From: a virus
Lineage: Duplodnaviria; Heunggongvirae; Uroviricota; Caudoviricetes
Strand: one strand, 5' to 3'
IMG/VR virus record: IMGVR_UViG_2541047895_000011
Length of the DNA: 32,441 nucleotides
Part shown: one piece after another, positions 1,401 to 29,345 of the stretch
How the letters are laid out: each line of letters starts with the position of its first letter
Numbering within the stretch: the stretch's first letter is position 1
Translations under genes and position numbers: made by a program
The notes under the pieces: model-generated
What the model was told of the DNA's origin: nothing
What the model saw: the letters and a program-made list of their open reading frames with translations, nothing else
Databases searched by the model: none

Positions 1401-1465
1401 TCCATTGATTTGAGAATAAACCAGCGTCTAAACGGTTTTGAGTGGTTTAGAAAGGGCTGGATCCT

Positions 1466-1753: not shown

Positions 1754-1755
1754 TT

Positions 1756-1926: not shown

Positions 1927-2423
1927 CAGTGATGACGCTTAATCTCGTTGAAAAACAGCCAGCAGCTATGCGCCGGATAATTGGTAAGCATCTTGCCGTC
2001 CCTCGCTGGCAGGATACATGTGATTATTATAATCAGATGATGGAGCGCGAACGGTTAACGGTTTGCTTTCATGCGCAGTTAAAACAGCGTCACGCAACGA
2101 TGCGTTTTGAAGAAATGAACGACGTCGAACGTGAACGGCTGGTTTGTGCAATTGATGAACTGCGTGGGGCATTCTCAAAACGCCGTCAGGTTGGCGCAAG
2201 TGAGTATGCATATATTAGTTTTTTAACAGTCAGTCAGCGTCGTACTTTATTTATGCATGCAGGATTGACTGAAAAAGAATTCAACCAGCCATACTGGCGA
2301 ATTAATGAAGAATCATGTTACTGGCGTGATGCTTTATTCCGTGCATTACGTGAATTATTCAGCCTGTTTGAGTACGCACCGACAATTCTGACGTCGGTAA
2401 AACCAGAGCAATATCTGCATTAA
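1923..2423 (+). CDS. B: Replication gene B-like protein (assigned by position and size, 166 aa)
   Basis: ORF track gives 1917..2423; ATG at 1923 has better spacing from the GGAGG at about 1910..1914 and gives 166 aa, the size of P2 B. Assignment is by synteny and length only. Confidence 0.5.
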   Translation: MTVMTLNLVEKQPAAMRRIIGKHLAVPRWQDTCDYYNQMMERERLTVCFHAQLKQRHATMRFEEMNDVERERLVCAIDELRGAFSKRRQVGASEYAYISFLTVSQRRTLFMHAGLTEKEFNQPYWRINEESCYWRDALFRALRELFSLFEYAPTILTSVKPEQYLH

Positions 2424-2486
2424 ATAATTAACCAGAGTTTTTAACGCACTTAATCGTGCGGGGCTTCTTTTTGCCTGGAGAAAGTC

Positions 2487-2711
2487 ATGCATACAGTTTC
2501 TGAAAATCAGTGCGGTAAATACGCATTACTGCTGCAACAGGCCAGAACCGAAGCACAGGCCGACGCTGCGACGCGCTTTTCTTCTCATCTTGACGCCATG
2601 ATTCGCCACATCACAAAGGCGGAGTTATCCCGCGTGGAGATAGTCGAGCTGCTCAGTCAGGAGTCGGAAAAATTTCACAACATCGGATTGTCTCGCGGGG
2701 AGGTGCTTTGA
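2487..2711 (+). CDS. Hypothetical early protein (position of P2 orf80)
   Basis: 74-aa ORF in the early operon; its stop overlaps the next start. Confidence 0.5.
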
Positions 2712-3013
2712 TGTCCTGTTCTCATTCAGTTGTATTACTGAACAATGCCTTAAAAATCGCCGTTATGAAAAATGGCGATTTGTCTCTTATTCAACTTGGT
2801 CTTGATAAAGAAAAACGCGAAATAACTGAATCTGTTATCGCGATTTATCAGAGTGAATTAAACCTCCTGTCTGATGTGGTCAATTTACTTGTTAAACGCG
2901 CTGTATTTCACAAGCAAATTTCCTCCGTGGATGAACTGACGAAATTAACGACAGAAATCGCCAGCTATTGCGCTGATGAATTTAAAAAACTGAACGACAA
3001 AAGGAACTGGTAA
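2708..3013 (+). CDS. Hypothetical early protein (position of P2 orf81)
   Basis: 101-aa ORF, translationally coupled to its neighbours (ATGA and TAATG overlaps). Confidence 0.5.
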
Positions 3014-3237
3014 TGCCGGACAACGTAGATTTTATTCAGGAACAACAGGCTGAATTACTGGAGCGCCAGATTAACGCGGCAAGGGTAAAACATTGTGGTG
3101 CTTCTGCGCTGGTTTGCGAAGAGTGTGACGCGCCAATACCTGCTGCCCGTCGTGCGGCTTATCCGTCAGCCACGCGTTGTGTTTCCTGTCAGTCAGTCTT
3201 TGAAGCAAAAAACAAACATTACCGGAGAACGGCATGA
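3013..3237 (+). CDS. TraR/DksA-family C4 zinc-finger protein (position of P2 orf82)
   Basis: 74 aa with two CxxC pairs (CEECDAP ... CVSCQ) in the spacing typical of the DksA/TraR zinc finger. Confidence 0.65.
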   Translation: MPDNVDFIQEQQAELLERQINAARVKHCGASALVCEECDAPIPAARRAAYPSATRCVSCQSVFEAKNKHYRRTA

Positions 3238-3509
3238 GTATTCGTATTGAAATTGGCGAACGTTATGTCGTTACCAGTGACAGCTTTCAGTTTATTCTCC
3301 ACGAGAAAAAGAGAGCTGAAAGCGGTAAAAATGCCGGTCAGGAATGGCTGGCGGTAGTTGGTTATTACCCGAAATTAAGCCAGCTCGTTTCCGGCCTGAT
3401 GCATCACGATATTCTGACCGGAAGCGCAAAATCTTTTGCTGATTTAAACGCGCAGGTTGAGCAACTCAGCAAGCGTTGTTCAGAGGCTTTTGGCTCACAT
3501 GGCCGTTAA
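3234..3509 (+). CDS. Hypothetical early protein (position of P2 orf83)
   Basis: 91-aa ORF; its stop overlaps the start of A. Confidence 0.5.
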   Translation: MSIRIEIGERYVVTSDSFQFILHEKKRAESGKNAGQEWLAVVGYYPKLSQLVSGLMHHDILTGSAKSFADLNAQVEQLSKRCSEAFGSHGR

Positions 3510-5808: not shown

Positions 5809-5930
5809 GACGCTCAAAGCAAGAGATTATTTTACTGTACGTAGCCATCTGGAATTGTGGCTGTGTTAAAACGCTCGAGATTTTTTGGATATCCAGTTAT
5901 ACTCCGCTTAGAAATCATTCGGAGACTAAG

Positions 5931-6977
5931 ATGGCGGTAAAAGTTGTTGATCTTTTTTGCGGTGCTGGCGGTTTAACGCACGGCTTACATTTGGCCGGAT
6001 TGGACGTTGTCGCAGGCATTGATTTAGAAGGTGAGTGTCGTGTTGCATACGAAAGCAATAATGATGCACTTTTTATTGAAAAAGATATATCTCTGGTGAC
6101 AAAAGATGAAATCGAAAATCTTTTTGAAGGGGCAAGTGTTAAAGTATTGGCCGGATGTGCACCTTGTCAGCCATTTTCTAAATATACTCAGGGAAAAGAT
6201 AAAAAAAATGATAAAAAGTGGCCGTTATTATATGAGTTTGAACGTTTAATAAAAGACACGAAACCAGAAATAGTTACAATGGAAAACGTTCCTGATGTGA
6301 CAAAACATTCTGTCTATGATGATTTTTATAATACCTTAATAGCATTGGGTTATTATGTTTGGGCAAATAAGATTGAATGTGTAGATTTTGAGGTTCCGCA
6401 AAACAGAGTGAGGCATGTATTACTCGCATCTAAATTTGCGCCGATTTCTCTGATGAAACCACAAACATCGGTAAAGCTGACAGTTAGGGATTGCATTGGT
6501 AATTTACCTTCGATTGAAGCGGGACAAGCAGATCCAAAAGACCCTCTCCATAAGGCGAGTAGATTGAGTGAAATTAATCTCAAACGTATTCTACATTCAA
6601 AACCGGGGGGGACATGGAGGGATTGGCCTGCTGAATTAATCGCTTCATGTCATGCCAAGAAAAGTGGGCAGGGATATGCCAGTGTTTATGGTCGTATGTC
6701 TTGGGATAAACCGAGTCCAACGATAACTACACTTTGTTATGGTTTTGGTAATGGACGTTTTGGTCATCCCGAGCAGCATCGTGCAATCTCACTTAGGGAA
6801 GCAGCATTACTTCAAACGTTTCCTGTTACATATTCATTTACCCAACCGGGCGAGCCGATCAAAATGAAAAATGTCGGGCGTATGATAGGTAATGCTGTTC
6901 CTGTAAACTTAGGTAAAGCGATTGGTCTTTCAATAGTACATCATTTGAAAGAGTTTCACCCCGCCGCTCTTAAATAA
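5931..6977 (+). CDS. DNA (cytosine-5)-methyltransferase, Dcm family
   Basis: 348 aa with motif I (DLFCGAGG), catalytic PCQ motif IV (GCAPCQPFS), ENV motif VI (MENVPDV), QNRVR motif VIII and a C-terminal GNAVPV motif; GGAG Shine-Dalgarno 6 nt upstream of the ATG; AT-rich compared with the phage backbone. Confidence 0.9.
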   Translation: MAVKVVDLFCGAGGLTHGLHLAGLDVVAGIDLEGECRVAYESNNDALFIEKDISLVTKDEIENLFEGASVKVLAGCAPCQPFSKYTQGKDKKNDKKWPLLYEFERLIKDTKPEIVTMENVPDVTKHSVYDDFYNTLIALGYYVWANKIECVDFEVPQNRVRHVLLASKFAPISLMKPQTSVKLTVRDCIGNLPSIEAGQADPKDPLHKASRLSEINLKRILHSKPGGTWRDWPAELIASCHAKKSGQGYASVYGRMSWDKPSPTITTLCYGFGNGRFGHPEQHRAISLREAALLQTFPVTYSFTQPGEPIKMKNVGRMIGNAVPVNLGKAIGLSIVHHLKEFHPAALK

Positions 6978-7675
6978 GCCTGAGTATCAAGATAAGTTTG
7001 TATATTTTCAAGGATGCAGTTGAGATAATGAAAAACTTCATCCTTCATTTCTGTTAGTGTATCAATAGATGTATCTCTGCCTTTGTTTCTAAATGATTCA
7101 GAACCATGAGCAAGGTCGTTTCTGGCCTTTTTTATTGGAAGTAAATTGCAACCATTTCGCGTTATTTCTGAATCTGTATCTGCTGAGAAGCCATATTTTT
7201 CAGCGACTTCTCTAATTTTTCTAGCATCAACATTTCCAGAAAATAACGGATTTTTATTTGATTGGATAAGTTTTTTGTGAGCGTTTAGCCACTCTTTAAA
7301 TATAACTTTTGCAATGTTCCCTTGTGAGAAATCTATTTTCCCATTTGGTGATTGTAAACTATGAAATGCTACTCTTGTAAGGTTTTCATTTACAGTGTCT
7401 GCACATAATGATTCATTAGACATTAAAACATTATGAATGTCTTCTATTGCATTGGAAATGGTTGCTTCAATGAGATTGTACAATATAATAAATGCATTAG
7501 CCTTTAAAATATGAGTCATGTCAATATCAATGGGTTGTTGTATAGGCGCATCGCTTGTATTCTCTTTATAGACTAGAGATGGTTTTTTGTTTATTAGTAA
7601 CTGAATGAATGAGAAGTATTCATTAATATCTTGCATTCTTTCTTGGAAAAGAATTTTACTTGTCATCTCCTCCAT
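6956..7675 (-). CDS. HEPN-like protein (candidate Rx4H motif, RNDLAHG), putative RNase effector
   Basis: 239-aa ORF, second gene of the leftward operon, 10 nt downstream of the DUF262 gene; near the C-terminus, KKARNDLAHGSESF fits the HEPN Rx4-6H signature; AT-rich. Domain call is by eye and not profile-verified. Confidence 0.55.
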   Translation of the reverse strand: MEEMTSKILFQERMQDINEYFSFIQLLINKKPSLVYKENTSDAPIQQPIDIDMTHILKANAFIILYNLIEATISNAIEDIHNVLMSNESLCADTVNENLTRVAFHSLQSPNGKIDFSQGNIAKVIFKEWLNAHKKLIQSNKNPLFSGNVDARKIREVAEKYGFSADTDSEITRNGCNLLPIKKARNDLAHGSESFRNKGRDTSIDTLTEMKDEVFHYLNCILENIQTYLDTQAYLRAAG

Positions 7676-7685
7676 TTACTTGGCC

Positions 7686-8831
7686 TCACTCCATATTTTC
7701 ATCTTCATTTTCATCTTCGTCGACAATATTTTCTGGAATGTCTTTCCCAAGCAACTTGTTTTTTACATATTCAATGCGTGCTTTAACTTTGGGTTTAGAG
7801 TTGCTGGCATCTGAACGTGTGTGCGTGATAAACTCTTTCGAGTTGATCCAGTCATCAATATTTTTAGGAACTAAATTGGGTTCTTCCTCTAGTGCTAATG
7901 TTGCACCGACGGCAAGAGCTTCGAAACGAATCCTAGGAACAGTGGTGGCGTTTTTCACCTTTCTGAAACCATTTGGGAAATGTGTATTAATGAATTGGCA
8001 CATTTTATGAAATTTTTCCGCCAGCATAGCTGCGTTTTCATCTGTATATTCGGCATTTTTACGTTTTAAATAGGTTGTAAGAAATTCATCAACGCTTTTT
8101 CTGAAATCAAGATATTCTTCAGTGTAGGCAAAGTAGCGTAGTGCCAATTCTGGATATTCAGAGCGACGTTTTCTTGCATCTCCCAAAGGACAGATGCTAT
8201 GAAATAGAGGATCTTCGGAAATTTCATTGATAAATGCAAGGAATGGCCCATCATGGCTACCTTGCCGTTGTTCCATTGTTGTTAGTTTTTTTCCGCCAGT
8301 ATTCAGACGGTCAAAAATTTCCCTTCTTGTCTCTTCGTCACAATGTTCTGTAAGTTCAATCATTCGAATAGTTTTTCTATCAAAACGTAGGCGACGGGGA
8401 GTACTGAAATCAGAATATTTAAAACCATTGGCTGTGACTAATTTCTGCAGGCCTTCAAGAGTTAGTTTGTTATTGGTAAATTGGTGTAGGGTTCTTATTC
8501 GTTGGCTACCGTCAACAATTTCAAGTCTACCTTCATTTTCACCTGAACCAATATCGGCAACGAATATGTAAGGTATAGGAAGATTTAAAAGCAGAGATTC
8601 AATGAAACGGGATTTTTGCTTGTTGTTCCAGATAAACTCCCTTTGGTAGTCAGGTATAAAAAGCTCTGCCTCATCTTCTTCAAGACCATTCTGAAATTTG
8701 TCCACAATAACACTTATCGGGAACTCACGTATTTCATGGTCAGTGATTTTTTGCATTTCAACTATGCTTTGATCTAAAAGCTCCTTTTCTTCTTTAGTTT
8801 TTGGGGTATGTTCTGCTTTTTTTCTCGCCAT
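7686..8831 (-). CDS. DUF262 / ParB-like (GmrSD N-terminal-type) protein with acidic C-terminal tail
   Basis: 381 aa; N-terminal region has the DUF262 hallmarks (IPDYQREFIW followed by EIVDGSQRIRTL, a DGQQR-type motif); no recognisable DUF1524/HNH module; C-terminus is DEDENEDENME; first gene of the leftward operon starting near cos. Confidence 0.75.
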   Translation of the reverse strand: MARKKAEHTPKTKEEKELLDQSIVEMQKITDHEIREFPISVIVDKFQNGLEEDEAELFIPDYQREFIWNNKQKSRFIESLLLNLPIPYIFVADIGSGENEGRLEIVDGSQRIRTLHQFTNNKLTLEGLQKLVTANGFKYSDFSTPRRLRFDRKTIRMIELTEHCDEETRREIFDRLNTGGKKLTTMEQRQGSHDGPFLAFINEISEDPLFHSICPLGDARKRRSEYPELALRYFAYTEEYLDFRKSVDEFLTTYLKRKNAEYTDENAAMLAEKFHKMCQFINTHFPNGFRKVKNATTVPRIRFEALAVGATLALEEEPNLVPKNIDDWINSKEFITHTRSDASNSKPKVKARIEYVKNKLLGKDIPENIVDEDENEDENME

Positions 8832-8970
8832 GAGCTTATTATCCTACTATGCGTGTGATTGCATTAAATTGCATGTTAAACAAAAGCATAATCTATATCA
8901 GTCAATCAGCCAGTGGCAAGGTGTTGTGATTACAATGCAACTGCATTAGAACCGACTCATGAAGCGGGCG

Positions 8971-8989
8971 GGCGAGGCGGGGAAAGCAC
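8971..8989. other. Candidate cos site (19-nt P2-type cohesive end, GGCGAGGCGGGGAAAGCAC)
   Basis: Sequence matches the P2 cohesive-end sequence as I recall it, and sits where expected, between the A-side cargo and Q. Confidence 0.6.
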
Positions 8990-9131
8990 TGCGCGCTGGC
9001 GGTGGTGCTGATTTTATTTTTTCAGCGTCTGAGCGCGTCGTGGCGGCGTTTAGTCTGCCCGTTGGGGTGTTGGTGTGTTTGCGGGATGTTTTGTGCGGTG
9101 GGGAGCGTGTGAGGGCGTGATGACAGGGTGT

Positions 9132-9153
9132 AAAAAAGCCGCCCGCAGGCGGC
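9132..9153 (-). terminator. Rho-independent terminator after Q (leftward transcript)
   Basis: GC-rich hairpin (GCCGCC-CGCA-GGCGGC, 9138..9153) immediately after the Q stop, followed on the minus strand by a run of six T (9132..9137). Confidence 0.6.
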
Positions 9154-9158
9154 GATGT

Positions 9159-10193
9159 TCAGCCGTTGTCAGTGTCCAGTGAGTAGTTTTTAAAGCGGAT
9201 GACCTCCTGACCGAGCCAGCCGTTTATCTCGCGGATCCTGTCCTGTAGCGGGATAAGCTCATTGCGGACAAAGACCTTTGCCACTTTCTCAATATCGCCC
9301 AGCGACCCGACGTTTTCCGGCTTGCCACCCATCAACTGAAAGGGGATGCGGTGCGCATCAAGCAGGTCAGCGGCGCTGGCTTTTTTGATATTAAAAAAAT
9401 CGTCCTTCGTTGCCACTTCACTGAGCGGGATAATTTTAATACCGTCGGCTTTTCCCTGTGGGGCGTAGAGAAACAGGTTTTTAAAGTTGTTGCGGCCTTT
9501 CGACTTCACCATGTTTTCGCGAAGCATTTCGATATCGTTGCGATCCTGCACGGCATCGGTGACGTACATGATGTATCCGGCATGTGCGCCATTTTCGTAA
9601 TACTTGCGGCGGAACAGCGTGGCCGACTCATTCAGCCAGGCAGAGTTAAGGGCGCTGAGATATTCCGGCAGGCCGTACAGCTCCTGATTAATATCCGGCT
9701 CCAGCAGGTGAAACACGGAGCCGGGCGCGAAGGCTGTCGGCTCGTTGAAGGACGGCACCCACCAGTAAACATCCTCCTCCACGCCACGGCGGGTATATTT
9801 TGCCGGTGAGGTTTCCAGTCTGATGACCTTACCGGTAGTGCTGTAACGCTTTTCCAGAAACGCATTACCGAACACCAGAAAGTCCAGCACAAAGCGGCTG
9901 AAATTCTGCTGTGAAAGCCACGGATGCGGGATAAATGTCGAGGCCAGAATATTGCGTTTAACGTAAATCGGCGAGCTGTGATGCACGGCAGCACGCAGGC
10001 TTTTTGCCAGACCGGTAAAGCTGACCGGCGGCTCATACCATCTGCCGTTACTGATGCACTCAACGTAATCCAGAATGTCACGGCGGTCGAGTACCGGCAC
10101 CGGCTCGCCAAAGGTGAATGCCTCCATTTTCGGGGCGCTGGCGGTCATTTTTTTTGCCGCAGGTTGCGGTGTTTTCCCTTTTTTCTTGCTCAT
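9159..10193 (-). CDS. Q: Portal protein, P2 gpQ-like
   Basis: 344 aa, identical in length to P2 Q; adjacent to cos and transcribed leftward together with P. Confidence 0.9.
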   Translation of the reverse strand: MSKKKGKTPQPAAKKMTASAPKMEAFTFGEPVPVLDRRDILDYVECISNGRWYEPPVSFTGLAKSLRAAVHHSSPIYVKRNILASTFIPHPWLSQQNFSRFVLDFLVFGNAFLEKRYSTTGKVIRLETSPAKYTRRGVEEDVYWWVPSFNEPTAFAPGSVFHLLEPDINQELYGLPEYLSALNSAWLNESATLFRRKYYENGAHAGYIMYVTDAVQDRNDIEMLRENMVKSKGRNNFKNLFLYAPQGKADGIKIIPLSEVATKDDFFNIKKASAADLLDAHRIPFQLMGGKPENVGSLGDIEKVAKVFVRNELIPLQDRIREINGWLGQEVIRFKNYSLDTDNG

Positions 10194-18405: not shown

Positions 18406-19041
18406 ATGAACACTCTCGCAAATATTCAGGAACTCGCGCGCGCACTGCGCAACATGATTCGCACCGGCATTATCGTCGAAACCGACCTTAACGCCGGTCG
18501 CTGCCGCGTGCAGACCGGCGGCATGTGCACCGACTGGCTTCAGTGGCTGACCCATCGCGCAGGACGTTCGCGCACATGGTGGGCACCTTCCGTGGGGGAG
18601 CAGGTGCTGATTCTGGCCGTGGGCGGTGAACTCGACACGGCGTTCGTTCTGCCGGGGATTTATTCCGGCGATAACCCCGCGCCGTCTGCATCGGCGGATG
18701 CCCTGCATATCCGTTTCCCTGACGGGGCGGTGATTGAGTATGAACCTGAAACCAGTGCGCTCACGGTAAGCGGAATTAAAACGGCCAGCGTGACGGCTTC
18801 TGATTCTGTTACTGCCACGGTGCCGGTGGTCATGGTGAAAGCGTCAACCCGCATCACCCTGGACACACCGGAGGTGGTCTGCACCAACAGGCTGATTACC
18901 GGCACGCTGGAAGTACAGAAGGGCGGGACGATGCGCGGCAACATTGAACACACCGGCGGTGAACTCTCATCAAACGGTAAGGTACTGCATACCCATAAAC
19001 ACCCCGGCGACAGCGGCGGCACAACCGGGAGTCCTCTATGA
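18406..19041 (+). CDS. V: Baseplate spike protein, P2 gpV-like
   Basis: 211 aa; position and size of P2 V. Confidence 0.85.
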   Translation: MNTLANIQELARALRNMIRTGIIVETDLNAGRCRVQTGGMCTDWLQWLTHRAGRSRTWWAPSVGEQVLILAVGGELDTAFVLPGIYSGDNPAPSASADALHIRFPDGAVIEYEPETSALTVSGIKTASVTASDSVTATVPVVMVKASTRITLDTPEVVCTNRLITGTLEVQKGGTMRGNIEHTGGELSSNGKVLHTHKHPGDSGGTTGSPL

Positions 19042-19385
19042 CAGCACGTTATCTCGGAATGAATCGCAGTGATGGCCTGACTGTCACTGACCTTGAGCAT
19101 ATCAGCCAGAGTATCGGCGATATCCTGCGCACGCCGGTCGGCTCACGGGTGATGCGTCGTGATTACGGCTCGTTGCTGGCGTCAATGATTGACCAGCCGC
19201 AGACCCCGGCGCTTGAGTTGCAGATTAAGGTCGCCTGTTACATGGCGGTGCTGAAATGGGAACCCCGCGTCACCCTGTCATCCGTCACCACTGAGCGCAG
19301 TTTTGACGGGCGAATGACGGTCACGTTAACCGGCCAGCACAACGACACCGGCCAGTCACTTTCGTTAACCATCCCTGTGAGTTGA
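19038..19385 (+). CDS. W: Baseplate wedge protein, P2 gpW-like
   Basis: 115 aa; overlaps the V stop; position and size of P2 W. Confidence 0.85.
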   Translation: MTARYLGMNRSDGLTVTDLEHISQSIGDILRTPVGSRVMRRDYGSLLASMIDQPQTPALELQIKVACYMAVLKWEPRVTLSSVTTERSFDGRMTVTLTGQHNDTGQSLSLTIPVS

Positions 19386-19389
19386 AACC

Positions 19390-20298
19390 ATGCCGATTAT
19401 CGACCTGAACCAGCTACCCGCACCGGATGTGGTCGAAGAGCTGGACTTTGAAACCATTCTTGCCGAACGCAAGGCGACACTGATTTCCCTTTACCCGGAA
19501 GACCAGCAGGAGGCGGTCGCCCGTACCCTGACGCTGGAATCCGAGCCTCTCGTCAAACTGCTGGAGGAAAATGCTTATCGTGAGCTTATCTGGCGTCAGC
19601 GTGTGAATGAGGCCGCACGGGCGGTGATGCTGGCCTGTGCTGCCGGTAATGACCTTGATGTGATTGGTGCCAATTACAACACCACGCGCCTGACTATCAC
19701 CCCGGCAGATGATTCGACCCTCCCGCCGACACCGGCAGTGATGGAGTCTGACACCGATTATCGTCTGCGTATTCAGCAGGCGTTTGAAGGTTTAAGCGTC
19801 GCCGGGTCGGTGGGTGCCTATCAGTATCATGGTCGAAGTGCCGACGGGCGTGTCGCGGATATCTCTGTCACCAGTCCGTCTCCGGCCTGCGTCACCATCT
19901 CTGTGCTGTCACGTGAAAATAACGGTGTTGCATCCGAAGACCTGCTGGCCGTGGTGCGTAACGCCCTTAATGGCGAGGACGTCAGGCCGGTGGCCGACCG
20001 CGTGACCGTACAGTCTGCCGCCATTGTTGAATACCAGATAAACGCCACGCTTTACCTTTACCCAGGCCCCGAAAGCGAACCCATCCGCGCTGCCGCCGTG
20101 AAAAAACTGGAAGCGTATATCACGGCACAGCACCGGCTGGGGCGCGACATCCGTCTGTCTGCCATTTATGCCGCTTTGCATGTGGAAGGTGTGCAGCGTG
20201 TCGAACTGGCTGCACCGCTGGCCGATATCGTGCTTAACAGCACGCAGGCGTCTTTCTGTACCGAATACCGCGTCGTGACCGGAGGCTCGGATGAGTGA
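19390..20298 (+). CDS. J: Baseplate protein, P2 gpJ-like
   Basis: 302 aa; position and size of P2 J. Confidence 0.85.
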   Translation: MPIIDLNQLPAPDVVEELDFETILAERKATLISLYPEDQQEAVARTLTLESEPLVKLLEENAYRELIWRQRVNEAARAVMLACAAGNDLDVIGANYNTTRLTITPADDSTLPPTPAVMESDTDYRLRIQQAFEGLSVAGSVGAYQYHGRSADGRVADISVTSPSPACVTISVLSRENNGVASEDLLAVVRNALNGEDVRPVADRVTVQSAAIVEYQINATLYLYPGPESEPIRAAAVKKLEAYITAQHRLGRDIRLSAIYAALHVEGVQRVELAAPLADIVLNSTQASFCTEYRVVTGGSDE

Positions 20299-20821
20299 TT
20301 CGCGACTGCTGCCGACCGGCTCATCACCGCTTGAGGTAGCCGCCGCAAAAGCCTGTGCGGAAATTGAAAAAACACCGGTCAGTATTCGTGAGCTGTGGAA
20401 CCCGGACACCTGCCCGGCAAATCTGCTGCCGTGGCTGGCGTGGGCGTTTTCGGTCGACAGATGGGATGAAAAGTGGCCGGAAGCGACAAAACGCGCCGTT
20501 ATCCGCGATGCGTATTTCATCCACTGTCATAAAGGCACTATAGGTGCAATCCGGCGTGTGGTGGAGCCGCTCGGCTATCTCATCAACGTGACGGAGTGGT
20601 GGGAAAACAGTGACCCGCCCGGCACCTTCCGGCTTGATATTGGTGTACTGGAAAGTGGCATCACAGAGGCAATGTATCAGGAAATGGAACGGCTGATTGC
20701 TGATGCCAAACCTGCAAGCCGTCACCTTATTGGCCTGAACATTACCCGGGACATTCCCGGCTACCTGTTCGCCGGTGGTGTGGCTTACGACGGCGATGTA
20801 ATTACGGTTTACCCCGGATAA
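20291..20821 (+). CDS. I: Baseplate protein, P2 gpI-like
   Basis: 176 aa; overlaps the J stop; position and size of P2 I. Confidence 0.85.
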   Translation: MSDSRLLPTGSSPLEVAAAKACAEIEKTPVSIRELWNPDTCPANLLPWLAWAFSVDRWDEKWPEATKRAVIRDAYFIHCHKGTIGAIRRVVEPLGYLINVTEWWENSDPPGTFRLDIGVLESGITEAMYQEMERLIADAKPASRHLIGLNITRDIPGYLFAGGVAYDGDVITVYPG

Positions 20822-20831
20822 GTGAGGAATA

Positions 20832-23024
20832 ATGAGCACAAAATTCAGAACCGTTATCACCACTGCCGGTGCAGCAAAGCTGGCAGCGGCAACCGCACCG
20901 GGAGGGCGGAAGGTCAACATTACCACGATGGCCGTCGGGGATGGCGGTGGTAAATTGCCTGTCCCGGATGCCGGACAGACCGGGCTTATCCACGAAGTCT
21001 GGCGACATGCGCTGAACAAAATCAGTCAGGACAAACGAAACAGTAATTATATTATCGCAGAGCTGGTTATTCCGCCGGAGGTGGGCGGTTTCTGGATGCG
21101 TGAGCTTGGCCTGTACGATGATGCGGGAACGCTAATTGCCGTGGCAAACATGGCCGAAAGTTATAAACCAGCTCTTGCCGAAGGCTCAGGGCGTTCGCAG
21201 ACCTGCCGCATGGTCATCATCGTCAGCAGTGTGGCCTCAGTGGCGTTGACTATTGACACCACAACGGTGATGGCGACGCAGGATTACGTTGATGACAAAA
21301 TTGCAGAGCACGAACAGTCACGACGTCACCCGGACGCTTCGCTGACCGCAAAAGGTTTTACTCAGTTAAGCAGCGCGACCAACAGCACGTCTGAAACACT
21401 GGCCGCAACGCCGAAAGCGGTAAAGGCCGCATATGACCTTGCTAACGGGAAATATACTGCACAGGATGCCACTACAGCGCGAAAAGGTCTTGTCCAGCTC
21501 AGTAGTGCCACCAACAGCACGTCTGAAACGCTCGCCGCAACACCAAAAGCGGTTAAGGCAGCGTATGACCTTGCTAACGGGAAATACACTGCACAGGACG
21601 CCACCACAGCGCGAAAAGGCCTTGTCCAGCTCAGTAGCGCCACCAACAGCGATTCTGAAACGCTTGCGGCAACGCCAAAGGCGGTAAAAGCAGCATATGA
21701 CCTTGCTAACGGGAAATATACCGCACAGGACGCCACCACAGCGCGAAAAGGCCTTGTCCAGCTCAGTAGCGCCACCAACAGCGATTCTGAAACGCTTGCA
21801 GCAACGCCAAAGGCGGTTAAGACAGCGTATGACCTTGCTAACGGGAAATACACTGCGCAGGATGCCACCACGGCACGGAAAGGCCTTGTCCAGCTCAGTA
21901 GCGCCACCAACAGCGATTCTGAAACGCTTGCAGCAACGCCAAAGGCGGTTAAGACAGCGTATGACCTTGCTAACGGGAAATACACTGCGCAGGATGCCAC
22001 CACGGCACGGAAAGGCCTTGTCCAGCTCAGTAGCGCCACCAACAGTGATTCTGAAACGCTGGCCGCAACACCAAAAGCAGTGAAGTCTGCCTATGACAAT
22101 GCTGAAAAACGTCTTCAGAAAGATCAGAACGGTGCGGATATTCCGGGAAAGGATACCTTCACGAAAAATATCGGTGCCTGTCGTGCTTATAGCGGCGCTT
22201 TGAGCACTGAAGCCGGAAACTGGACAACCGCTCAGTTTATTGAATGGCTGGATTCCCGTGGTGCATTTAATCATCCGTACTGGATGTGCAAATGTTCATG
22301 GTCATACGGCAATAATAAAATTATTACCGATACTGGCTGTGGAACTATTCATCTTGCAGGTTGCGTTATTGAGGTTATGGGTAATAAAGGTGCCATGACC
22401 ATCCGTGTAACAACACCAAGCACTTCCACCGGAGGCGGCACCACTAACGCTCAATTCACTTATATTAATCATGGTGATGCTTATGCCCCCGGCTGGCGAC
22501 GAGACTACAACACGAAAAACCAGCAGCCTGCATTTGCTTTAGGGCAAACAGGAAGCAGGGTTGCAAATGATAAAGCTGTTGGCTGGAACTGGAATAGCGG
22601 TGTTTATGATGCAGATATCAGCGGTGCATCGACATTAATCCTCCACTTCAATATGAATGCGGGGAGTTGCCCTGCCGTACAGTTCCGTGTGAATTATAAG
22701 AACGGCGGTATTTTTTATCGTTCAGCACGTGATGGTTATGGATTTGAGGCTGACTGGTCAGAGTTTTACACCACAACCCGCAAACCCTCTGCGGGAGATG
22801 TTGGTGCATATACCAAAGCTGAATCGGATTCTCGCTATGTACGAGATATTCGCCTGGGCACACGTGTTGTTCAGACTATGCAAAAAGGTGTGATGTATGA
22901 AAAATCAGGCCATGTAATTACAGGGCTTGGTATTGTCGGTGAAGTCGATGGTGATGACCCCGCAGTATTCAGACCAATACAAAAATACATCAATGGCACA
23001 TGGTATAACGTCGTACAGGTGTAA
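20832..23024 (+). CDS. H: Tail fibre protein, P2 gpH-like, with an internal tandem repeat array and an AT-rich C-terminal domain
   Basis: 730 aa; P2-like N-terminal part, then six in-frame 44-aa repeats, then a Cys-containing C-terminal domain of lower GC. Confidence 0.9.
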   Translation: MSTKFRTVITTAGAAKLAAATAPGGRKVNITTMAVGDGGGKLPVPDAGQTGLIHEVWRHALNKISQDKRNSNYIIAELVIPPEVGGFWMRELGLYDDAGTLIAVANMAESYKPALAEGSGRSQTCRMVIIVSSVASVALTIDTTTVMATQDYVDDKIAEHEQSRRHPDASLTAKGFTQLSSATNSTSETLAATPKAVKAAYDLANGKYTAQDATTARKGLVQLSSATNSTSETLAATPKAVKAAYDLANGKYTAQDATTARKGLVQLSSATNSDSETLAATPKAVKAAYDLANGKYTAQDATTARKGLVQLSSATNSDSETLAATPKAVKTAYDLANGKYTAQDATTARKGLVQLSSATNSDSETLAATPKAVKTAYDLANGKYTAQDATTARKGLVQLSSATNSDSETLAATPKAVKSAYDNAEKRLQKDQNGADIPGKDTFTKNIGACRAYSGALSTEAGNWTTAQFIEWLDSRGAFNHPYWMCKCSWSYGNNKIITDTGCGTIHLAGCVIEVMGNKGAMTIRVTTPSTSTGGGTTNAQFTYINHGDAYAPGWRRDYNTKNQQPAFALGQTGSRVANDKAVGWNWNSGVYDADISGASTLILHFNMNAGSCPAVQFRVNYKNGGIFYRSARDGYGFEADWSEFYTTTRKPSAGDVGAYTKAESDSRYVRDIRLGTRVVQTMQKGVMYEKSGHVITGLGIVGEVDGDDPAVFRPIQKYINGTWYNVVQV
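21352..22098. repeat. Six tandem copies of a 132-bp (44-codon) unit inside H, the phage tail-fibre repeat
   Basis: The motif ACCAACAGC recurs at 21378, 21510, 21642, 21774, 21906 and 22038, exactly 132 bp apart; units 4 and 5 appear identical; the encoded unit is GLVQLSSATNS(T/D)SETLAATPKAVK(A/T)AYDLANGKYTAQDATTARK. Confidence 0.9.
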
Positions 23025-23027
23025 TTT

Positions 23028-23555
23028 ATGCAGCATTTAAAAAATATTACTGCGGGTAATCCCAAAACTATTGCCCAATATCAACTGACAAAAAATTTTG
23101 ATGTTATCTGGTTATGGTCTGAAGACGGAAAAAACTGGTATGAGGAAGTAAGTAATTTTCAGGAAGACACGATAAAGATTGTTTACGACGAGAATAATAT
23201 AATTGTCGGCATCACCAGAGATGCTTCAACGCTTAACCCTGAAGGTTTTAGCGTTGTCGAGGTTCCTGATATTACCGCCAACCGACGTGCGGATGACTCA
23301 GGTAAATGGATGTTTAAGGATGGTGCCGTGATTAAGCGGATTTATACGACAGACGAACAGCAGCAACTGGCAGAATCACAAAAGGCAACTTTACTTTCCG
23401 AAGCTGAATCCGTGATTTTGCCGCTGGAGCGCGCTGTCAGGCTGAATATGGCAACAGATGAGGAACGCAGCCGACTGGAAGCATGGGAACGCTACAGCGT
23501 TCTGGTCAGCCGTGTGGATCCTGCAAATCCTGAATGGCCGGAAATGCCGCAATAA
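23028..23555 (+). CDS. G: Tail fibre assembly chaperone, P2 gpG-like
   Basis: 175 aa immediately after H; size and position of P2 G. Confidence 0.85.
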
Positions 23556-23776
23556 GTTGTATAAGCTCTGGTGTGAGATTACATATCTATGGCACAGAGT
23601 AAAGCCTAATCTGACAGGCCGCTCTGTGTCTGGAGTAGATTTTAGTAAAGCATTATTTCATTAGTGCAAATTCTAAACAATACATTTTATGTATATGATA
23701 TCCTGCGGACTTTAATGACTTGGTTTAGGCTAACCAGATAACACTGAAGGAATATTTTTGATAATTAAGGTGCGGT

Positions 23777-24370
23777 ATGTTTACTAAGCGACGATTAAAA
23801 AATATTAACTGGGAGGCAAGTTCAGTGATTCTTGCTATGGTTCTCTTTGTTGGAAATATATTTTATACAAATCATCGTGATGATATAAGCATGGAGGCTG
23901 AGAGAGACAGTATCAGAACAATGTTTGCATATGAAATCGCTAATAACCATCGCGCTCTCACTTTTCTTGATAAAACGAGAAATATTGGCTTTGACGAAAA
24001 TTCGGAGCATTTTGTTGGCGAGCCTTTTGCCATTAATGTCGAATCATTAGGAGGGCCTCGCTTACAGATTGCATTAAACCAGACTGATAAAGTTTTTAAA
24101 GCCTACTTCAGTGAATTAAGTAAACTTGATAAAGAGGATGTTACTCTTCTTATGGACTATTACCATGAGCAAAGCATCCTGCTGGAGTGTGTAAAATCTA
24201 CGTTAGAGAAGATGAAAAGCAATAATGATATTAAAGTTGATATTGATGGTTACTTATTAGAAGAACACTTCATGAATGAGTTTAATCTTTCTAATATTTT
24301 GCTTAAACGCTATAGCCATTTGTTGTCACAACACCTCAAAAAACCTGAAACAAAAGATTTACATAATTGA
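23777..24370 (+). CDS. Hypothetical membrane-anchored protein at the P2 Z/fun cargo position
   Basis: 197-aa ORF in an AT-rich island between G and FI; N-terminal hydrophobic segment (SSVILAMVLFVGNIFY); a terminator hairpin follows downstream; no motif I recognise. Confidence 0.6.
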   Translation: MFTKRRLKNINWEASSVILAMVLFVGNIFYTNHRDDISMEAERDSIRTMFAYEIANNHRALTFLDKTRNIGFDENSEHFVGEPFAINVESLGGPRLQIALNQTDKVFKAYFSELSKLDKEDVTLLMDYYHEQSILLECVKSTLEKMKSNNDIKVDIDGYLLEEHFMNEFNLSNILLKRYSHLLSQHLKKPETKDLHN

Positions 24371-24577
24371 TGATCTGCTAATGGTTATTCATGGGATAAC
24401 TATGTTTTATATGTAATCCAACTCAGATGAATTATTGATTCTGGATAATAACCGCAGAGCGGCATATACCCTGACAGGCAAATGTCCGCTTCTTGCTCAA
24501 AGCAGACTGTCAGATTTGATAACTTTTGGGTTATGTAAATTGTCAGTCGGAAAATGAGTGTGTGCAAATCAGGACAG

Positions 24578-24600
24578 GCGGGCGAATTGCCCGCTTTTTC
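24578..24600 (+). terminator. Rho-independent terminator downstream of the Z/fun-position ORF
   Basis: Hairpin GCGGGC-GAATT-GCCCGC followed by TTTTTCTTT. Confidence 0.65.
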
Positions 24601-24699
24601 TTTATCTGTTGTTTCATCCCCTGACCAGCCAGCTCAAATAGCGTCTCATGCTTTGCACAACAGAAAATAGTTGCACCCATTAACCACGGAGTTAAACGG

Positions 24700-26753: not shown

Positions 26754-26905
26754 CGTTCCCGAAAAATCTCTCGGTCGATGACCTGATGGCGGATGTGGCA
26801 GTGATATTTCACTGGCCGCCATCAGAACTGTATCCCATGAGCCTGACCGAACTCATCACATGGCGCGAAAAGGCGCTCCGGCGAAGCGGAAACACGAATG
26901 AGTAA
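26478..26905 (+). CDS. Tail assembly chaperone E+E' (predicted programmed -1 frameshift product, about 142 aa)
   Basis: T-run slippery site at about 26726..26732 near the 3' end of E; the -1 frame stays open and terminates at the TAA at 26903..26905, which overlaps the T start codon; total length matches P2 E+E'. End coordinate inferred from the T start and carries about 1 nt uncertainty from hand counting. Confidence 0.55.
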
Positions 26906-29345
26906 CAATGTAAAATTACAGGTATTGCTCAGGGCTGTTGACCAGGCATCCCGCCCGTTTAAATCCATCCGCACAGCGAGTAAGTCGCTGTCGGGGGATA
27001 TCCGGGAAACACAAAAATCACTGCGCGAGCTGAACGGTCACGCATCCCGTATTGAGGGATTCCGCAAGACCAGTGCGCAGCTCGCCGTGACTGGTCATGC
27101 ACTTGAAAAGGCACGGCAGGAAGCCGAAGCCCTTGCCACACAGTTTAAAAACACCGAACGTCCGACCCGTGCTCAGGCGAAAGTGCTGGAATCCGCAAAG
27201 CGAGCGGCGGAGGACTTACAGGCGAAATATAACCGCCTGACGGATTCCGTTAAACGCCAGCAGCGGGAACTGGCCGCTGTGGGAATTAATACCCGCAATC
27301 TTGCACATGATGAGCAGGGACTGAAAAACCGTATCAGTGAAACCACAGCACAGCTTAACCGTCAGCGCGACGCGCTGGCGCGTGTCAGTGCGCAACAGGC
27401 AAAACTTAACGCAGTAAAACAGCGTTATCAGGCCGGAAAGGAACTGGCCGGAAATATGGCCTCAGTGGGCGCTGCCGGTGTGGGGATTGCTGCTGCGGGA
27501 ACGATGGCCGGAGTTAAGCTGCTGATGCCCGGTTATGAGTTTGCGCAGAAAAACTCAGCATTGCAGGCCGTGCTCGGAGTGGCAAAAGACTCCGCCGAAA
27601 TGGCCGCGCTCCGCAAACAGGCGCGCCAGCTCGGCGACAACACCGCCGCCTCGGCGGACGATGCAGCCGGTGCGCAGATTATCATTGCGAAAGCGGGTGG
27701 AGATGCTGCGGCTATTCAGGCGGCAACGCCGGTCACGCTGAATATGGCACTGGCGAATCAGCGGTCGATGGAAGAAAACGCGCAACTGTTGCTGGGGACT
27801 AAGGCATCCTTTCAACTGTCAAATGATGATGTCAGCCATGTGGGCGACGTGTTGTCGGCAACGATGAATAAGTCGGCGGCTGATTTTCAGGGACTCAGTG
27901 ATGCACTGACTTACCTCGGTCCGGTTGCGAGGACGGCAGGTGTAAGTCTTGAGCAGGCAGCGGCCATGACAGGTGTGCTGCATGACAATAACATCAGGGG
28001 GTCAATGGCGGGTACGGGGAGTAGTGCCGTTGTCACCCGATTACAGGCTCCGACAGGGAAAGCATGGGAAGCACTAAAAGAGCTTGGCGTTAAAACCTCG
28101 GACAAAAAGGGAAATATGCGTCCGTTGTTCACCATTCTGAAAGAGATTCAGGCCAGCTTTGATAAACACAAGCTGGGAACGTCTCAGAAGGGGGAATACC
28201 TTAAAACCATTTTTGGTGAGGAAGCCCTGAAATCAGCGAACGTTTTACTGGCAGCGGCTGCAAGCGGAAAACTGGATAAGCTGACCGCCACGCTGAAAGC
28301 CTCGGACGGTAAAACGGAAGAGCTGGTTAAAATCATGCAGGATAACCTCGGCGGTGACTTTAAGGAGTTTCAGTCTGCTTATGAGGCGGTGGGGACAGAC
28401 CTGTTTGACCAGCAGGAAGGCGCACTGCGTAAGCTCACTCAGACGGCCACAAAGTATGTGTTAAAACTCGACGGCTGGATCCAGAAAAACAAATCACTGG
28501 CGTCAACCATCGGCCTCATTGTCGGTAGCGCACTGGCGCTTACTGGCATCATCGGTGCCATTGGTCTTGTAGCCTGGCCGGTTATCACCGGCATCAATGC
28601 CATTATCGCGGCAGCAGGCGCAATGGGGGCAATCTTCACGACGGTTGGCAGTGCTGTTATGACGGCCATCGGGGCGATTAGCTGGCCGGTTGTGGCCGTG
28701 GTGGCCGCCATTGTCGCCGGGGCGTTGCTTATCCGTAAATACTGGGAGCCTGTCAGCGCATTCTTTGGCGGTGTGGTTGAAGGGCTGAAAGCGGCATTTG
28801 CGCCGGTGGGGGAACTGTTCACGCCACTGAAGCCGGTGTTTGACTGGCTGGGCGAAAAGTTACAGGCCGCGTGGCAGTGGTTTAAAAACCTGATTGCCCC
28901 CGTCAAAGCCACCCAGGACACCCTGAACCGTTGCCGTGACACGGGCGTCATGTTCGGGCAGGCACTGGCTGACGCGTTGATGCTGCCGCTTAATGCGTTC
29001 AACAAACTGCGCAGTGGTATTGACTGGGTACTGGAAAAACTCGGTGTTATCAACAAAGAGTCAGACACACTTGACCAGACCGCCGCAAGGACTCATGCCG
29101 CCACGTATGGCACCGGTGGTTATATTCCGGCGACCAGCTCTTATGCAGGCTATCAGGCTTATCAGCCGGTCACGGCACCGGCTGGCCGCTCTTATGTGGA
29201 CCAGAGTAAAAACGAATATCACATCAGCCTGACGGGTGGTACTGCGCCGGGGACACAGCTTGACCGCCAGTTACAGGATGCGCTCGAAAAATACGAGCGG
29301 GATAAACGTGCGCGCGCCCGTGCCAGCATGATGCATGACGGTTAA
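26898..29345 (+). CDS. T: Tail tape measure protein, P2 gpT-like
   Basis: 815 aa, identical in length to P2 T; coiled-coil N-terminal part, Gly/Ala-rich hydrophobic central segment. Confidence 0.9.
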   Translation: MSNNVKLQVLLRAVDQASRPFKSIRTASKSLSGDIRETQKSLRELNGHASRIEGFRKTSAQLAVTGHALEKARQEAEALATQFKNTERPTRAQAKVLESAKRAAEDLQAKYNRLTDSVKRQQRELAAVGINTRNLAHDEQGLKNRISETTAQLNRQRDALARVSAQQAKLNAVKQRYQAGKELAGNMASVGAAGVGIAAAGTMAGVKLLMPGYEFAQKNSALQAVLGVAKDSAEMAALRKQARQLGDNTAASADDAAGAQIIIAKAGGDAAAIQAATPVTLNMALANQRSMEENAQLLLGTKASFQLSNDDVSHVGDVLSATMNKSAADFQGLSDALTYLGPVARTAGVSLEQAAAMTGVLHDNNIRGSMAGTGSSAVVTRLQAPTGKAWEALKELGVKTSDKKGNMRPLFTILKEIQASFDKHKLGTSQKGEYLKTIFGEEALKSANVLLAAAASGKLDKLTATLKASDGKTEELVKIMQDNLGGDFKEFQSAYEAVGTDLFDQQEGALRKLTQTATKYVLKLDGWIQKNKSLASTIGLIVGSALALTGIIGAIGLVAWPVITGINAIIAAAGAMGAIFTTVGSAVMTAIGAISWPVVAVVAAIVAGALLIRKYWEPVSAFFGGVVEGLKAAFAPVGELFTPLKPVFDWLGEKLQAAWQWFKNLIAPVKATQDTLNRCRDTGVMFGQALADALMLPLNAFNKLRSGIDWVLEKLGVINKESDTLDQTAARTHAATYGTGGYIPATSSYAGYQAYQPVTAPAGRSYVDQSKNEYHISLTGGTAPGTQLDRQLQDALEKYERDKRARARASMMHDG

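What the first reader, a model, noticed from the sequence alone, without database searches (positions are those of the whole stretch)
22100..23024. H C-terminal domain is AT-rich and Cys-containing, consistent with a swapped receptor-binding module
After the repeat array the composition shifts to lower GC and the protein gains a segment with several cysteines (WMCKCSWSYGNNKIITDTGCGTIHLAGC). Tail-fibre tips are commonly exchanged between phages, so this region probably sets receptor specificity independently of the P2-like N-terminus.
Basis: partly seen in the sequence, partly recalled or inferred. Interest (0 to 1): 0.4.

Follow-up and report, generated by a model that had tools for sequence, protein, structure and literature searches.

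The report
Mu S'-type tip on P2 tail fibre
The far end of this P2-like prophage's tail-fibre gene is a well-known, exchangeable sugar-binding module of the phage Mu S' type, already solved structurally and already present almost identically in sequenced phages, so the finding is correct but ordinary.

Summary
H is window 20832-23024 (730 aa). After the 132-nt repeat array ends at 22097, GC drops from 55% to 46% (third codon positions 54% to 40%), and six of the seven cysteines lie in aa 450-613.

Only aa 423-665 (22098-22826) has no counterpart in P2 H. That stretch is 84% identical to the variable part of phage Mu tail fibre S' (G(-) orientation, PDB 8JU3) and 99.6% identical to H of Escherichia phages vB_EcoM-12474II-V. 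The last 65 aa are P2-like (78%), and the assembly chaperone G is 91% identical to P2 G.

Low GC is not evidence of the swap, because P2's own distal H and G have the same composition.

The region is a stack of units that assort independently: NGADIP linker, D1 (which holds the Cys cluster), D2 (Pfam gp37_C) and a chaperone-docking tail. In 80 related loci the tail type tracks the chaperone type.

By homology, the likely function is LPS-sugar recognition that sets host range. The exact sugar cannot be predicted.

Verdict: already known, low interest.

The parts
20832..21371 (+). H aa 1-180: P2-type N-terminal baseplate-attachment (tail-collar) domain and the lead-in to the repeats
   Evidence: Pfam PF12571 covers aa 1-151, E 2.9e-58. 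96% identical to P2 gpH over aa 1-251. DNA 96.8% identical to P2 across 18406-21557.
21372..22097 (+). Shaft: tandem 132-nt (44-aa) Phage_fiber_2 repeats; the copy number varies between relatives
   Evidence: TRF reports period 132, 5.5 copies, 91% matches. Pfam PF03406 matches six stretches. P2 has 2 repeats and 12474II has two fewer than the window. The otherwise identical NZ_CP027550 H is 686 aa.
22098..22163 (+). Linker box NAEKRLQKDQNGADIPGKDTFT (aa 423-444), which holds the left recombination junction
   Evidence: Similarity to the end of Mu Sc covers 22011-22144, and similarity to Mu Sv' starts at 22116. The crossover therefore lies in the shared NGADIP box at 22116-22144. Mu S' has two such boxes flanking the inversion site, whereas the window has one fused box.
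22164..22529 (+). D1 (aa 445-566): conserved globular domain that carries the Cys cluster (C450, C486, C488, C503, C511)
   Evidence: The AF2 monomer model is confident here (10-residue block means of pLDDT 72-89 for aa 463-562). There are 36 invariant columns among 30 homologues. 495 clusters at 50% identity match D1 at E<=1e-3, nearly always at internal positions with a median of 214 residues following. D1 is found without D2 in other fibres.
22281..22364 (+). The quoted Cys-containing peptide WMCKCSWSYGNNKIITDTGCGTIHLAGC (aa 484-511)
   Evidence: Read directly from the sequence. This stretch is 97-100% nt identical to Yersinia phage YpM_6 but only 65-77% to Mu Sv'. C488 and C511 co-occur: 36 sequences have both, 76 have G488/A511, 2 have G488/C511, and none has C488 with A511.
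22530..22826 (+). D2 (aa 567-665): gp37_C-like distal domain with the most variable loops (aa 574-584 and 591-600)
   Evidence: Pfam PF12604 covers aa 573-667, 26.9 bits against a cut-off of 22.5. D2 is found separately from D1 in Felix-O1-like, P2-like and other fibres. The monomer model has low confidence here (pLDDT 29-45), as expected for an intertwined trimer.
22827..23024 (+). C-terminal tail (aa 666-730 plus stop): P2-type chaperone-docking segment, not part of the swap relative to P2
   Evidence: 78% identical to the last 65 aa of P2 H, 95% to YpM_6 and 47% to Mu S'. DNA similarity to P2 resumes at 22827. The tail type co-occurs with the Tfa type in 74 loci.
23028..23555 (+). G: tail-fibre assembly chaperone (Tfa) of the P2 G / Mu U type, the partner of the tail
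   Evidence: Pfam PF02413, E 1e-34. 91% identical to P2 G, 87% to Mu U and 58% to Mu U'.

Best explanation
Window 22100-23024 encodes the distal, host-recognising end of the tail fibre H of a P2-like (Peduovirus) prophage of E. coli.

The fibre is a mosaic:
- A P2-type N-terminus anchors it to the baseplate.
- Six 44-aa repeats form the shaft.
- A conserved NGADIP linker joins the shaft to a two-domain body (D1 plus D2, aa 445-665). This body is of the phage Mu S' / P1 S' type, the alternative fibre made in the G(-)/C(-) orientation (PDB 8JU3).
- A 65-aa P2-type tail ends the protein.

Inferred mechanism: the fibre trimerises from its C-terminal end with the help of the chaperone G. The N-terminal part of G docks on the 65-aa tail. 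D1-D2, possibly together with retained G, then binds a carbohydrate of the lipopolysaccharide (a core glucose or an O-antigen unit, as in Mu S', SfMu and P1 S'). That binding fixes host range.

The units (linker, D1, D2, tail plus the chaperone's N-terminus) are exchanged by recombination at short conserved boxes among P2-like, Mu-like, P1-like and other phages. Here the fibre is fixed and not invertible.

Shown: homology, junctions, modular assortment and the tail-chaperone co-occurrence.
Inferred: LPS binding, which loops contact the receptor, and any disulfide formed by the cysteines.
For: Homology to known fibres:
- A PDB sequence search of aa 420-730 hits 8ju3_A (Mu tail fiber S/S') at E 5e-157 over aa 423-727, and Mu S (5yvq) only over the last 66 aa.
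- A fold search of the model returns only 8ju3 (E 8.6e-34) and 5yvq.
- Module identity is 84% to Mu S', 89% to RCS47 S, 91% to YpM_6 S and 99.6% to 12474II H. It is 31% over 88 aa to P2 H.

Junctions:
- There is no DNA similarity to P2 in 22098-22826. Flanking similarity is 96.8% upstream and 84.9% downstream.
- The left junction lies at 22116-22144. The right junction with Mu S' lies at about 22800-22830.

Modularity:
- D1, D2, other distal parts and three tail types occur in many combinations among 120 homologues.
- PHROG hits split the region in the same way.

Tail and chaperone:
- In 80 IMG/VR loci the S' tail occurs with a U'-type Tfa in 59/59 cases.
- The P2-type tail occurs with a G-type Tfa in 12/15 cases. 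The other 3, plus YpM_6, have a chimeric Tfa whose first 60 aa are G-like.
- In Mu the Tfa's N-terminal domain binds the distal fibre, the conserved C-terminal domain drives trimerisation, and the Tfa stays on the virion (PMC9608196, citing North et al. 2019).

Receptor evidence from the literature:
- SfUMu is not a name used here; SfMu, with 18 aa changes from Mu S', uses O-antigen (PMC4406740).
- YpM phages need the LPS core (PMC10434027).

The fibre works in a real phage: vB_EcoM-12474V, with an almost identical fibre, forms plaques on E. coli DSM 12242 and MC1061 but not on W3110, JM109, DH5alpha or ATCC 11303 (PMC6834657).
Against: - No experiment addresses this allele's receptor. It differs from Mu S' at about 38 of 241 aligned module positions, and 18 changes were enough to shift SfMu to O-antigen, so the sugar cannot be named.
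- D1 is nearly always internal in its homologues. It may therefore be structural rather than receptor-contacting, and which unit touches LPS is not established here.
- The monomer AF2 model is poor for D2.
- I could not read the 8JU3 paper (Mori et al. 2024) or inspect coordinates.
- The narrow host range of 12474V could reflect restriction or immunity rather than adsorption.
- The tail-chaperone association is counted on related loci, not on independent events.
Confidence: 0.85

Rival explanations
1. There was no swap. The whole C-terminal half is an ordinary, collinear but diverged P2 H distal domain.
For: The last 65 aa and G are P2-like. The composition equals that of P2's own distal H.
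Against: aa 423-665 show no DNA match to P2, and the best protein match is 31% over 88 aa. The same stretch is 84-91% identical to Mu-, P1- and Mu-like Yersinia phage fibres.
Confidence: 0.02
2. The low GC marks a recent acquisition by this particular prophage from an AT-rich donor.
For: GC3 steps from about 54% to 40% exactly at the end of the repeats.
Against: P2's different distal H has the same low GC, as do P2 G and the Mu G-segment genes. The allele is shared at 96-100% nt identity with phages 12474II-V and about 30 E. coli genomes. The nearest non-P2 relatives are only 75-84% nt identical overall, with a fine patchwork of 97-100% stretches. Low GC is therefore a long-standing property of the whole exchangeable fibre-tip gene pool.
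Confidence: 0.08
3. The receptor is an outer-membrane protein rather than LPS.
For: D2 matches Pfam gp37_C, a domain named after T-even long tail fibres, some of which bind porins. Proteinase K partly reduced adsorption of two of the four Yersinia Mu-like phages.
Against: Every characterised close relative uses LPS sugars: Mu S', P1 S', SfMu and the YpM phages. In T2-type phages the porin is bound by a separate adhesin, gp38, not by gp37_C (my own knowledge). The proteinase K effect was reported for YpM_3 and YpM_23, not for YpM_6.
Confidence: 0.08
4. Host specificity is set mainly by the chaperone G retained at the fibre tip, not by the swapped H module.
For: Mu Tfa stays on the virion and contributes to host recognition (PMC9608196, citing North et al. 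2019 and North & Davidson 2021).
Against: G here is 91% identical to P2 G. Yet the almost identical phage 12474V does not plate on wild-type K-12 strains, which P2 infects (my own knowledge). In Mu and P1 the S/S' variable parts are the accepted host-range determinants. A joint contribution is not excluded.
Confidence: 0.12
5. The cysteine cluster is a functional redox or metal site specific to this fibre.
For: Four Cys lie within 26 aa (p about 0.004). C488 and C511 co-occur strictly: 36 sequences have both and none has C488 with A511.
Against: C486 and C503 are conserved among close relatives but are replaced in 20-35% of the wider D1 family. The C488/C511 pair may be one inherited event. 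Mu S' lacks both and is functional. No coordinates could be inspected.
Confidence: 0.25

Closest known systems
Tail fibre H of Escherichia phages vB_EcoM-12474II-V (MK907236-9; QDJ98452.1), Peduovirus
   Same: Same architecture throughout: P2-type N-terminus, repeats, identical linker, D1 and D2 (module 99.6% identical), P2-type tail (98.5%) and G (96.6%). DNA is 97-100% identical from 22060 to 23560.
   Different: It has four repeats where the window has six (642 vs 730 aa). The gene in the slot downstream of G differs.
Phage Mu tail fibre S' (gp52, G(-) orientation; PDB 8JU3, Mori et al. 2024)
   Same: D1 plus D2 are 84% identical over 241 aa. It has the same NGADIP linker and the same conserved C450, C486, C503 and C613. 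It is the experimentally defined host-range determinant that binds LPS glucose.
   Different: - Mu S' has its own tail (47% identical) and the chaperone U' (58%), and it lies in an invertible segment with Gin. The window has a P2-type tail and a G/U-type chaperone, with no gix-like site and no invertase.
- Mu has Cys at position 507 and lacks C488 and C511.
- The N-terminal constant part is unrelated to P2 H.
Phage P2 gpH (AAD03286.1)
   Same: aa 1-251 are 96% identical, the last 65 aa are 78% identical and G is 91% identical. Gene order V-W-J-I-H-G is the same.
   Different: P2 has 2 repeats. Its distal body (aa 251-604) is of the Mu S (G(+)) type and unrelated to aa 423-665 here. P2 H keeps a LGLQETVN motif like that at the Mu inversion site; the window lacks it.
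Yersinia Mu-like phage vB_YpM_6 S protein (QKE55485.1)
   Same: The module is 91% identical and the tail 95%, with the same Cys set CCCHC. The Cys-cluster DNA is 97-100% identical.
   Different: It has a Mu-type N-terminus and two NGADIP boxes. Its Tfa is chimeric: the first 60 aa are G-like and the rest is U'-like.
P1 S' / RCS47 S and SfMu ORF49 fibres
   Same: The D1-D2 body is 83-89% identical. Their receptors are LPS O-antigen.
   Different: They have the S'-type tail and U'. P1-type N-termini are much longer (975 aa). Both lie in invertible segments.

Membership tests
P2 gpH-type tail fibre (Peduovirus H) | N-terminal tail-collar / baseplate-attachment domain (PF12571) in the V-W-J-I-H-G operon | tested here: met
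   PF12571 at E 2.9e-58. 96% identical to P2 H aa 1-251. Flanking genes match P2 at 96.8% DNA identity.
P2 gpH-type tail fibre (Peduovirus H) | Phage_fiber_2 repeats after the N-terminal domain | tested here: met
   Six PF03406 stretches and a 132-nt tandem array. P2 has two repeats.
P2 gpH-type tail fibre (Peduovirus H) | Distal body collinear with P2 H aa 251-604 | tested here: not met
   No DNA match in 22098-22826. No significant BLASTP alignment there.
P2 gpH-type tail fibre (Peduovirus H) | P2-type C-terminal 65 aa followed by a G-type assembly chaperone | tested here: met
   78% identity in the tail. G is 91% identical to P2 G.
Mu S' / P1 S' alternative tail-fibre distal region (PDB 8JU3) | Sequence homology over the crystallised distal body (D1 plus D2) | tested here: met
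   phmmer E 5e-157 against 8ju3_A. 84% identity over 241 aa. Foldseek E 8.6e-34.
Mu S' / P1 S' alternative tail-fibre distal region (PDB 8JU3) | S'-type C-terminal tail (...RPIQYCINGTWYNAGSI) | tested here: not met
   47% identity. The tail is of the P2 / YpM_6 type.
Mu S' / P1 S' alternative tail-fibre distal region (PDB 8JU3) | Cognate U' chaperone encoded downstream | tested here: not met
   G is 58% identical to U', against 87% to U and 91% to P2 G.
Mu S' / P1 S' alternative tail-fibre distal region (PDB 8JU3) | Lies in an invertible segment with gix/cix sites, an invertase and an alternative S/U pair | tested here: not met
   No gix-like site at up to 3 mismatches. No Gin homologue and no second fibre or chaperone copy in the window.
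Mu S' / P1 S' alternative tail-fibre distal region (PDB 8JU3) | Binds an LPS carbohydrate and sets host range | not testable with these tools
   Only literature on relatives is available, plus the host range of the near-identical phage 12474V.
Pfam PF12604 gp37_C | Whole-protein score above the gathering cut-off | tested here: met
   26.9 bits against a cut-off of 22.5, covering aa 573-667.
Tail-fibre assembly proteins (Caudo_TAP, PF02413), for G | Pfam match, and a variable N-terminal domain that co-varies with the fibre tail | tested here: met
   PF02413 at E 1e-34. Tail type and Tfa type co-occur in 74 loci.

The most novel reading that the evidence does not exclude
The 65-aa H tail and roughly the first 60 aa of the chaperone may form a separately exchangeable docking adaptor. 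That adaptor would let an S'-type receptor-binding body be folded by a non-cognate (P2 G / Mu U-type) chaperone.

In addition, the co-occurring C488/C511 pair may be an extra disulfide that defines a structural subtype of D1. The fibre tip would then be a plug system of three or four parts whose rules could be used to retarget P2-type particles.
Probability: 0.45. Interest if true: 0.3.

Novelty: already known. Interest (0 to 1): 0.15.

Why it matters
The result explains why this P2-like prophage should not share the host range of P2: it carries the Mu/P1 'alternative' fibre tip, fixed in place. It also adds one more documented case of the modular exchange of fibre tips that has been known for P2, Mu and P1 since 1992.

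The practical value is modest. The mapped junctions (the NGADIP box and the start of the 65-aa tail) and the tail-chaperone pairing rule are useful design points for anyone retargeting P2 particles or tailocins. Nothing here changes current understanding.

Tried and rejected
- **Invertible segment.** I searched the window for a Mu gix-like inversion site (0 matches at up to 3 mismatches), for a Gin-type invertase and for a second inverted fibre/chaperone copy (none). The fibre is not invertible.
- **More distant folds.** A fold search of the AF2 model against the PDB found nothing significant beyond 8ju3 and 5yvq.
- **Structure model.** The monomer model (mean pLDDT 62) is unusable for D2, and coordinates are not exposed, so Cys-Cys distances could not be measured.
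- **Papers not held.** I could not read Mori et al. 2024 (8JU3), North & Davidson 2021 or Haggard-Ljungquist et al. 1992. Their content is cited only through other papers or marked as my own knowledge.
- **Composition as evidence of recent transfer.** Rejected, because P2's own distal genes have the same GC.
- **Overlapping genes on other frames.** Only short ORFs (52-71 aa) overlap 22100-23024, and nothing supports them as genes.
- **The AT-rich ORF downstream.** PADLOC gave only a weak hit, E 0.005.
Full report
**What is there**

The finding lies in the 3' third of a 2193-nt ORF (20832-23024, + strand, 730 aa). The ORF sits in a P2-type late operon in the order V-W-J-I-H-G. Pfam assigns four families to this protein:
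- the N-terminal tail-collar domain PF12571 (aa 1-151);
- six Phage_fiber_2 repeats;
- a weak TPR_20 hit with no supported stretch, lying in the repeat region, which I disregard;
- a weaker gp37_C match (aa 573-667).

The next ORF (23028-23555) is a Caudo_TAP assembly chaperone. The stretch 22098-24699 is 100% identical to a prophage in E. coli 2015C-4136CT1 (NZ_CP027550), where these genes are annotated as tail fiber protein and tail fiber assembly protein.

**Checking the observation**

The 132-nt tandem array ends at 22097. GC then falls from 55.4% to 46.6% in 22098-22826 and to about 44% in the last 195 nt. At third codon positions the fall is from 54-68% in the backbone to 40% and 35%.

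The quoted peptide is at aa 484-511. H has seven cysteines, six of them between aa 450 and 613, and four within 26 residues (p about 0.004 under random placement).

The low GC is not exceptional within the window as a whole: 23% of 925-nt windows are as low or lower.

**What is swapped and what is not**

BLASTN against P2 gives three zones:
- 96.8% identity from 18406 to 21557;
- nothing at all for 22098-22826;
- 84.9% identity for 22827-23628.

At protein level, aa 1-251 are 96% identical to P2 gpH and the last 65 aa are 78% identical. G is 91% identical to P2 G. There is no significant alignment for aa 423-665. The module replaced relative to P2 is therefore 729 nt long, not the full 925 nt of the finding.

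**Identity of the module**

A sequence search of the PDB hits 8ju3_A, the phage Mu S/S' tail fibre, at E 5e-157 over almost the whole query. Mu S (5yvq) matches only the last 66 residues. The AF2 model finds only these two entries by fold.

| Comparator | Module identity (aa 423-665) |
|---|---|
| H of phages vB_EcoM-12474II-V | 99.6% |
| Mu-like Yersinia phage vB_YpM_6 S | 91% |
| P1-like RCS47 S | 89% |
| P88 | 88% |
| Mu S' | 84% |
| another P2-like H (NC_070905) | 84% |

12474II-V differ from the window mainly by having two fewer repeats.

In complete E. coli genomes, 896 of 5426 carry a match to some part of the module and 399 carry at least 80% of it. 151 of the matching places are on plasmids, probably P1-like phage-plasmids given the RCS47 match. 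29 records are at least 99% identical. The module is therefore common and already deposited.

**Composition is not evidence of the swap**

P2's own, unrelated distal H has GC 47.8% (GC3 45.5%). Its tail has 47.2%, and the first 115 codons of its G have 38.8%. Mu Sv, Sv', U and U' lie between 42.5% and 47%. Every version of this exchangeable tip is AT-rich relative to the P2 late genes. The step in GC marks the boundary of a shared mobile gene pool, not a recent event in this prophage.

**Fine structure**

Four lines of evidence divide the region into linker, D1, D2 and tail:
- partial hits in phages and in E. coli genomes;
- PHROG profile hits;
- a 30-sequence alignment;
- an architecture tally of 120 homologues.

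The units are:
- **Linker** (aa 423-444), the NGADIP box.
- **D1** (aa 445-566).
- **D2** (aa 567-665, gp37_C-like).
- **Tail** (aa 666-730).

D1 occurs with D2 and an S' tail, a P2-type tail or a third tail type. It also occurs with a Mu S-like distal body instead of D2, and twice in tandem in Photorhabdus proteins.

D1 alone matches 495 clusters at 50% identity. In those proteins it is almost always internal, with a median of 214 residues following it. D1 is thus a widespread internal knob rather than the extreme tip.

Among close relatives, variability peaks just before D1 (aa 452-464) and in D2 loops (aa 574-584 and 591-600). These are candidate specificity determinants, by inference only.

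**Junctions**

Similarity to the end of Mu Sc covers 22011-22144 and similarity to Mu Sv' begins at 22116. The left crossover therefore lies in the shared NGADIP box. Mu S' has two such boxes flanking its inversion site; the window has one fused box and no gix-like sequence.

On the right, identity to Mu Sv' collapses at about 22800-22830.

Within the module the DNA is itself a patchwork:
- 22270-22420, which includes the Cys cluster, is 97-100% identical to YpM_6 but only 65-77% to Mu.
- 22420-22570 and 22630-22750 are 90-98% identical to Mu.

**Tail and chaperone**

In 80 IMG/VR loci that carry D1-D2, the S' tail is followed by a U'-type Tfa in 59 of 59 cases. The P2-type tail is followed by a G-type Tfa in 12 of 15 cases. 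In the other three, and in YpM_6, the Tfa is a chimera whose first 60 residues are G-like (82%) and whose remainder is U'-like.

This fits the published Mu S-U complex. There the variable N-terminal domain of Tfa binds the distal fibre, the conserved C-terminal domain drives trimerisation, and the Tfa remains on the virion (PMC9608196, citing North et al. 2019).

The co-occurrence is counted on related sequences, so it is an association and not a count of independent events.

Among P2-type fibres with this body, the full S' tail with U' is the commoner arrangement (33 loci). The window's arrangement is the minority one (13 loci).

**Cysteines**

In 114-115 close homologues, C486 and C503 are conserved in 113/114 and 115/115 sequences. 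C488 and C511 occur together: 36 sequences have both, 76 have G488/A511, 2 have G488/C511, and none has C488 with A511. Mu S' instead has a Cys at position 507.

In the wider D1 family, C486 is present in 89 of 140 representatives and C503 in 115 of 140.

Two disulfides in this subtype (486-503 and 488-511) are plausible but untested. The pairing pattern may reflect a single inherited change.

**Function**

All characterised relatives bind LPS sugars:
- SfMu uses O-antigen with only 18 substitutions relative to Mu S'.
- The Yersinia Mu-like phages need the LPS core.

P2 itself targets LPS.

Phage vB_EcoM-12474V carries an almost identical fibre. It plates on E. coli DSM 12242 and on MC1061 (efficiency of plating 0.28) but not on W3110, JM109, DH5alpha or ATCC 11303. 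This shows that the chimeric fibre is functional. It is also compatible with a specificity different from P2's, although restriction or immunity could contribute. The exact sugar cannot be inferred.

**Not invertible**

No Gin homologue, no gix-like site and no second fibre or chaperone copy exist in the window.

**Verdict**

The boundaries need correcting and the composition argument should be dropped. The module, its structure, its exchange among P2, Mu and P1, and this very allele are all already in the public record (Haggard-Ljungquist et al. 1992 is cited). Novelty is therefore nil and interest is low. The small residual value is the explicit mapping of junctions and the tail-chaperone pairing rule.

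Noticed in passing
window 23777-24370 (+), with intergenic flanks 23556-24699: A very AT-rich ORF of 197 aa (GC 34%, GC3 32%) with an N-terminal hydrophobic stretch. It sits between G and the sheath gene FI, in the slot where P2 carries the lysogenic-conversion gene fun(Z). It matches phrog_3829 (unknown function) over its full length, has no Pfam hit, and has only a weak PADLOC hit (PDC-M46A, E 0.005). Other P2-like phages carry different cargo in this slot, so it is a candidate moron or defence gene.
   Followed up: partly
window 21372-22097: The 132-nt (44-aa) Phage_fiber_2 repeat array varies in copy number among near-identical alleles. P2 has 2 repeats and 12474II has two fewer than the window's six. 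The otherwise 100% identical NZ_CP027550 H is 686 aa, one repeat (44 aa) shorter than the window's 730 aa. No complete E. coli genome in the collection had the six-copy array in one piece. Fibre length therefore varies independently of the tip.
   Followed up: partly
L022, L027, L036 and L007 (Yersinia phage vB_YpM_6): the gene downstream of the fibre: These loci carry natural chimeric assembly chaperones. Residues 1-60 are G/U-like (82%), residues 61-110 are U'-like (90%), and the C-domain is 99-100% U'. They always follow a fibre with the P2-type 65-aa tail. This points to the first ~60 residues of Tfa as the tail-recognition element.
   Followed up: partly
proteins P0052 and P0063 (Photorhabdus), found: The D1 domain occurs twice in tandem in Photorhabdus tail-fibre-like proteins. 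D1 is also found at internal positions of proteins up to 2160 aa long.
   Followed up: no
window 21362-22274 (- strand): Two long minus-strand ORFs (226 and 302 aa) lie entirely within the repeat array and have periodic sequences. They look like artefacts of the tandem repeat, not genes.
   Followed up: no
window 1-3700 and 5200-9500: There are further low-GC stretches (925-nt windows at or below 48% GC) outside the late operon, probably early or accessory regions of the prophage. I did not examine them.
   Followed up: no
L008 7801-8602 (NZ_CP027550) versus window 26898-29345: The tape-measure gene is annotated as frameshifted in the RefSeq record that matches 22098-24699 at 100%. The window has an intact 815-aa ORF there, and its H has one more repeat. 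The window therefore probably comes from a different assembly or strain.
   Followed up: no
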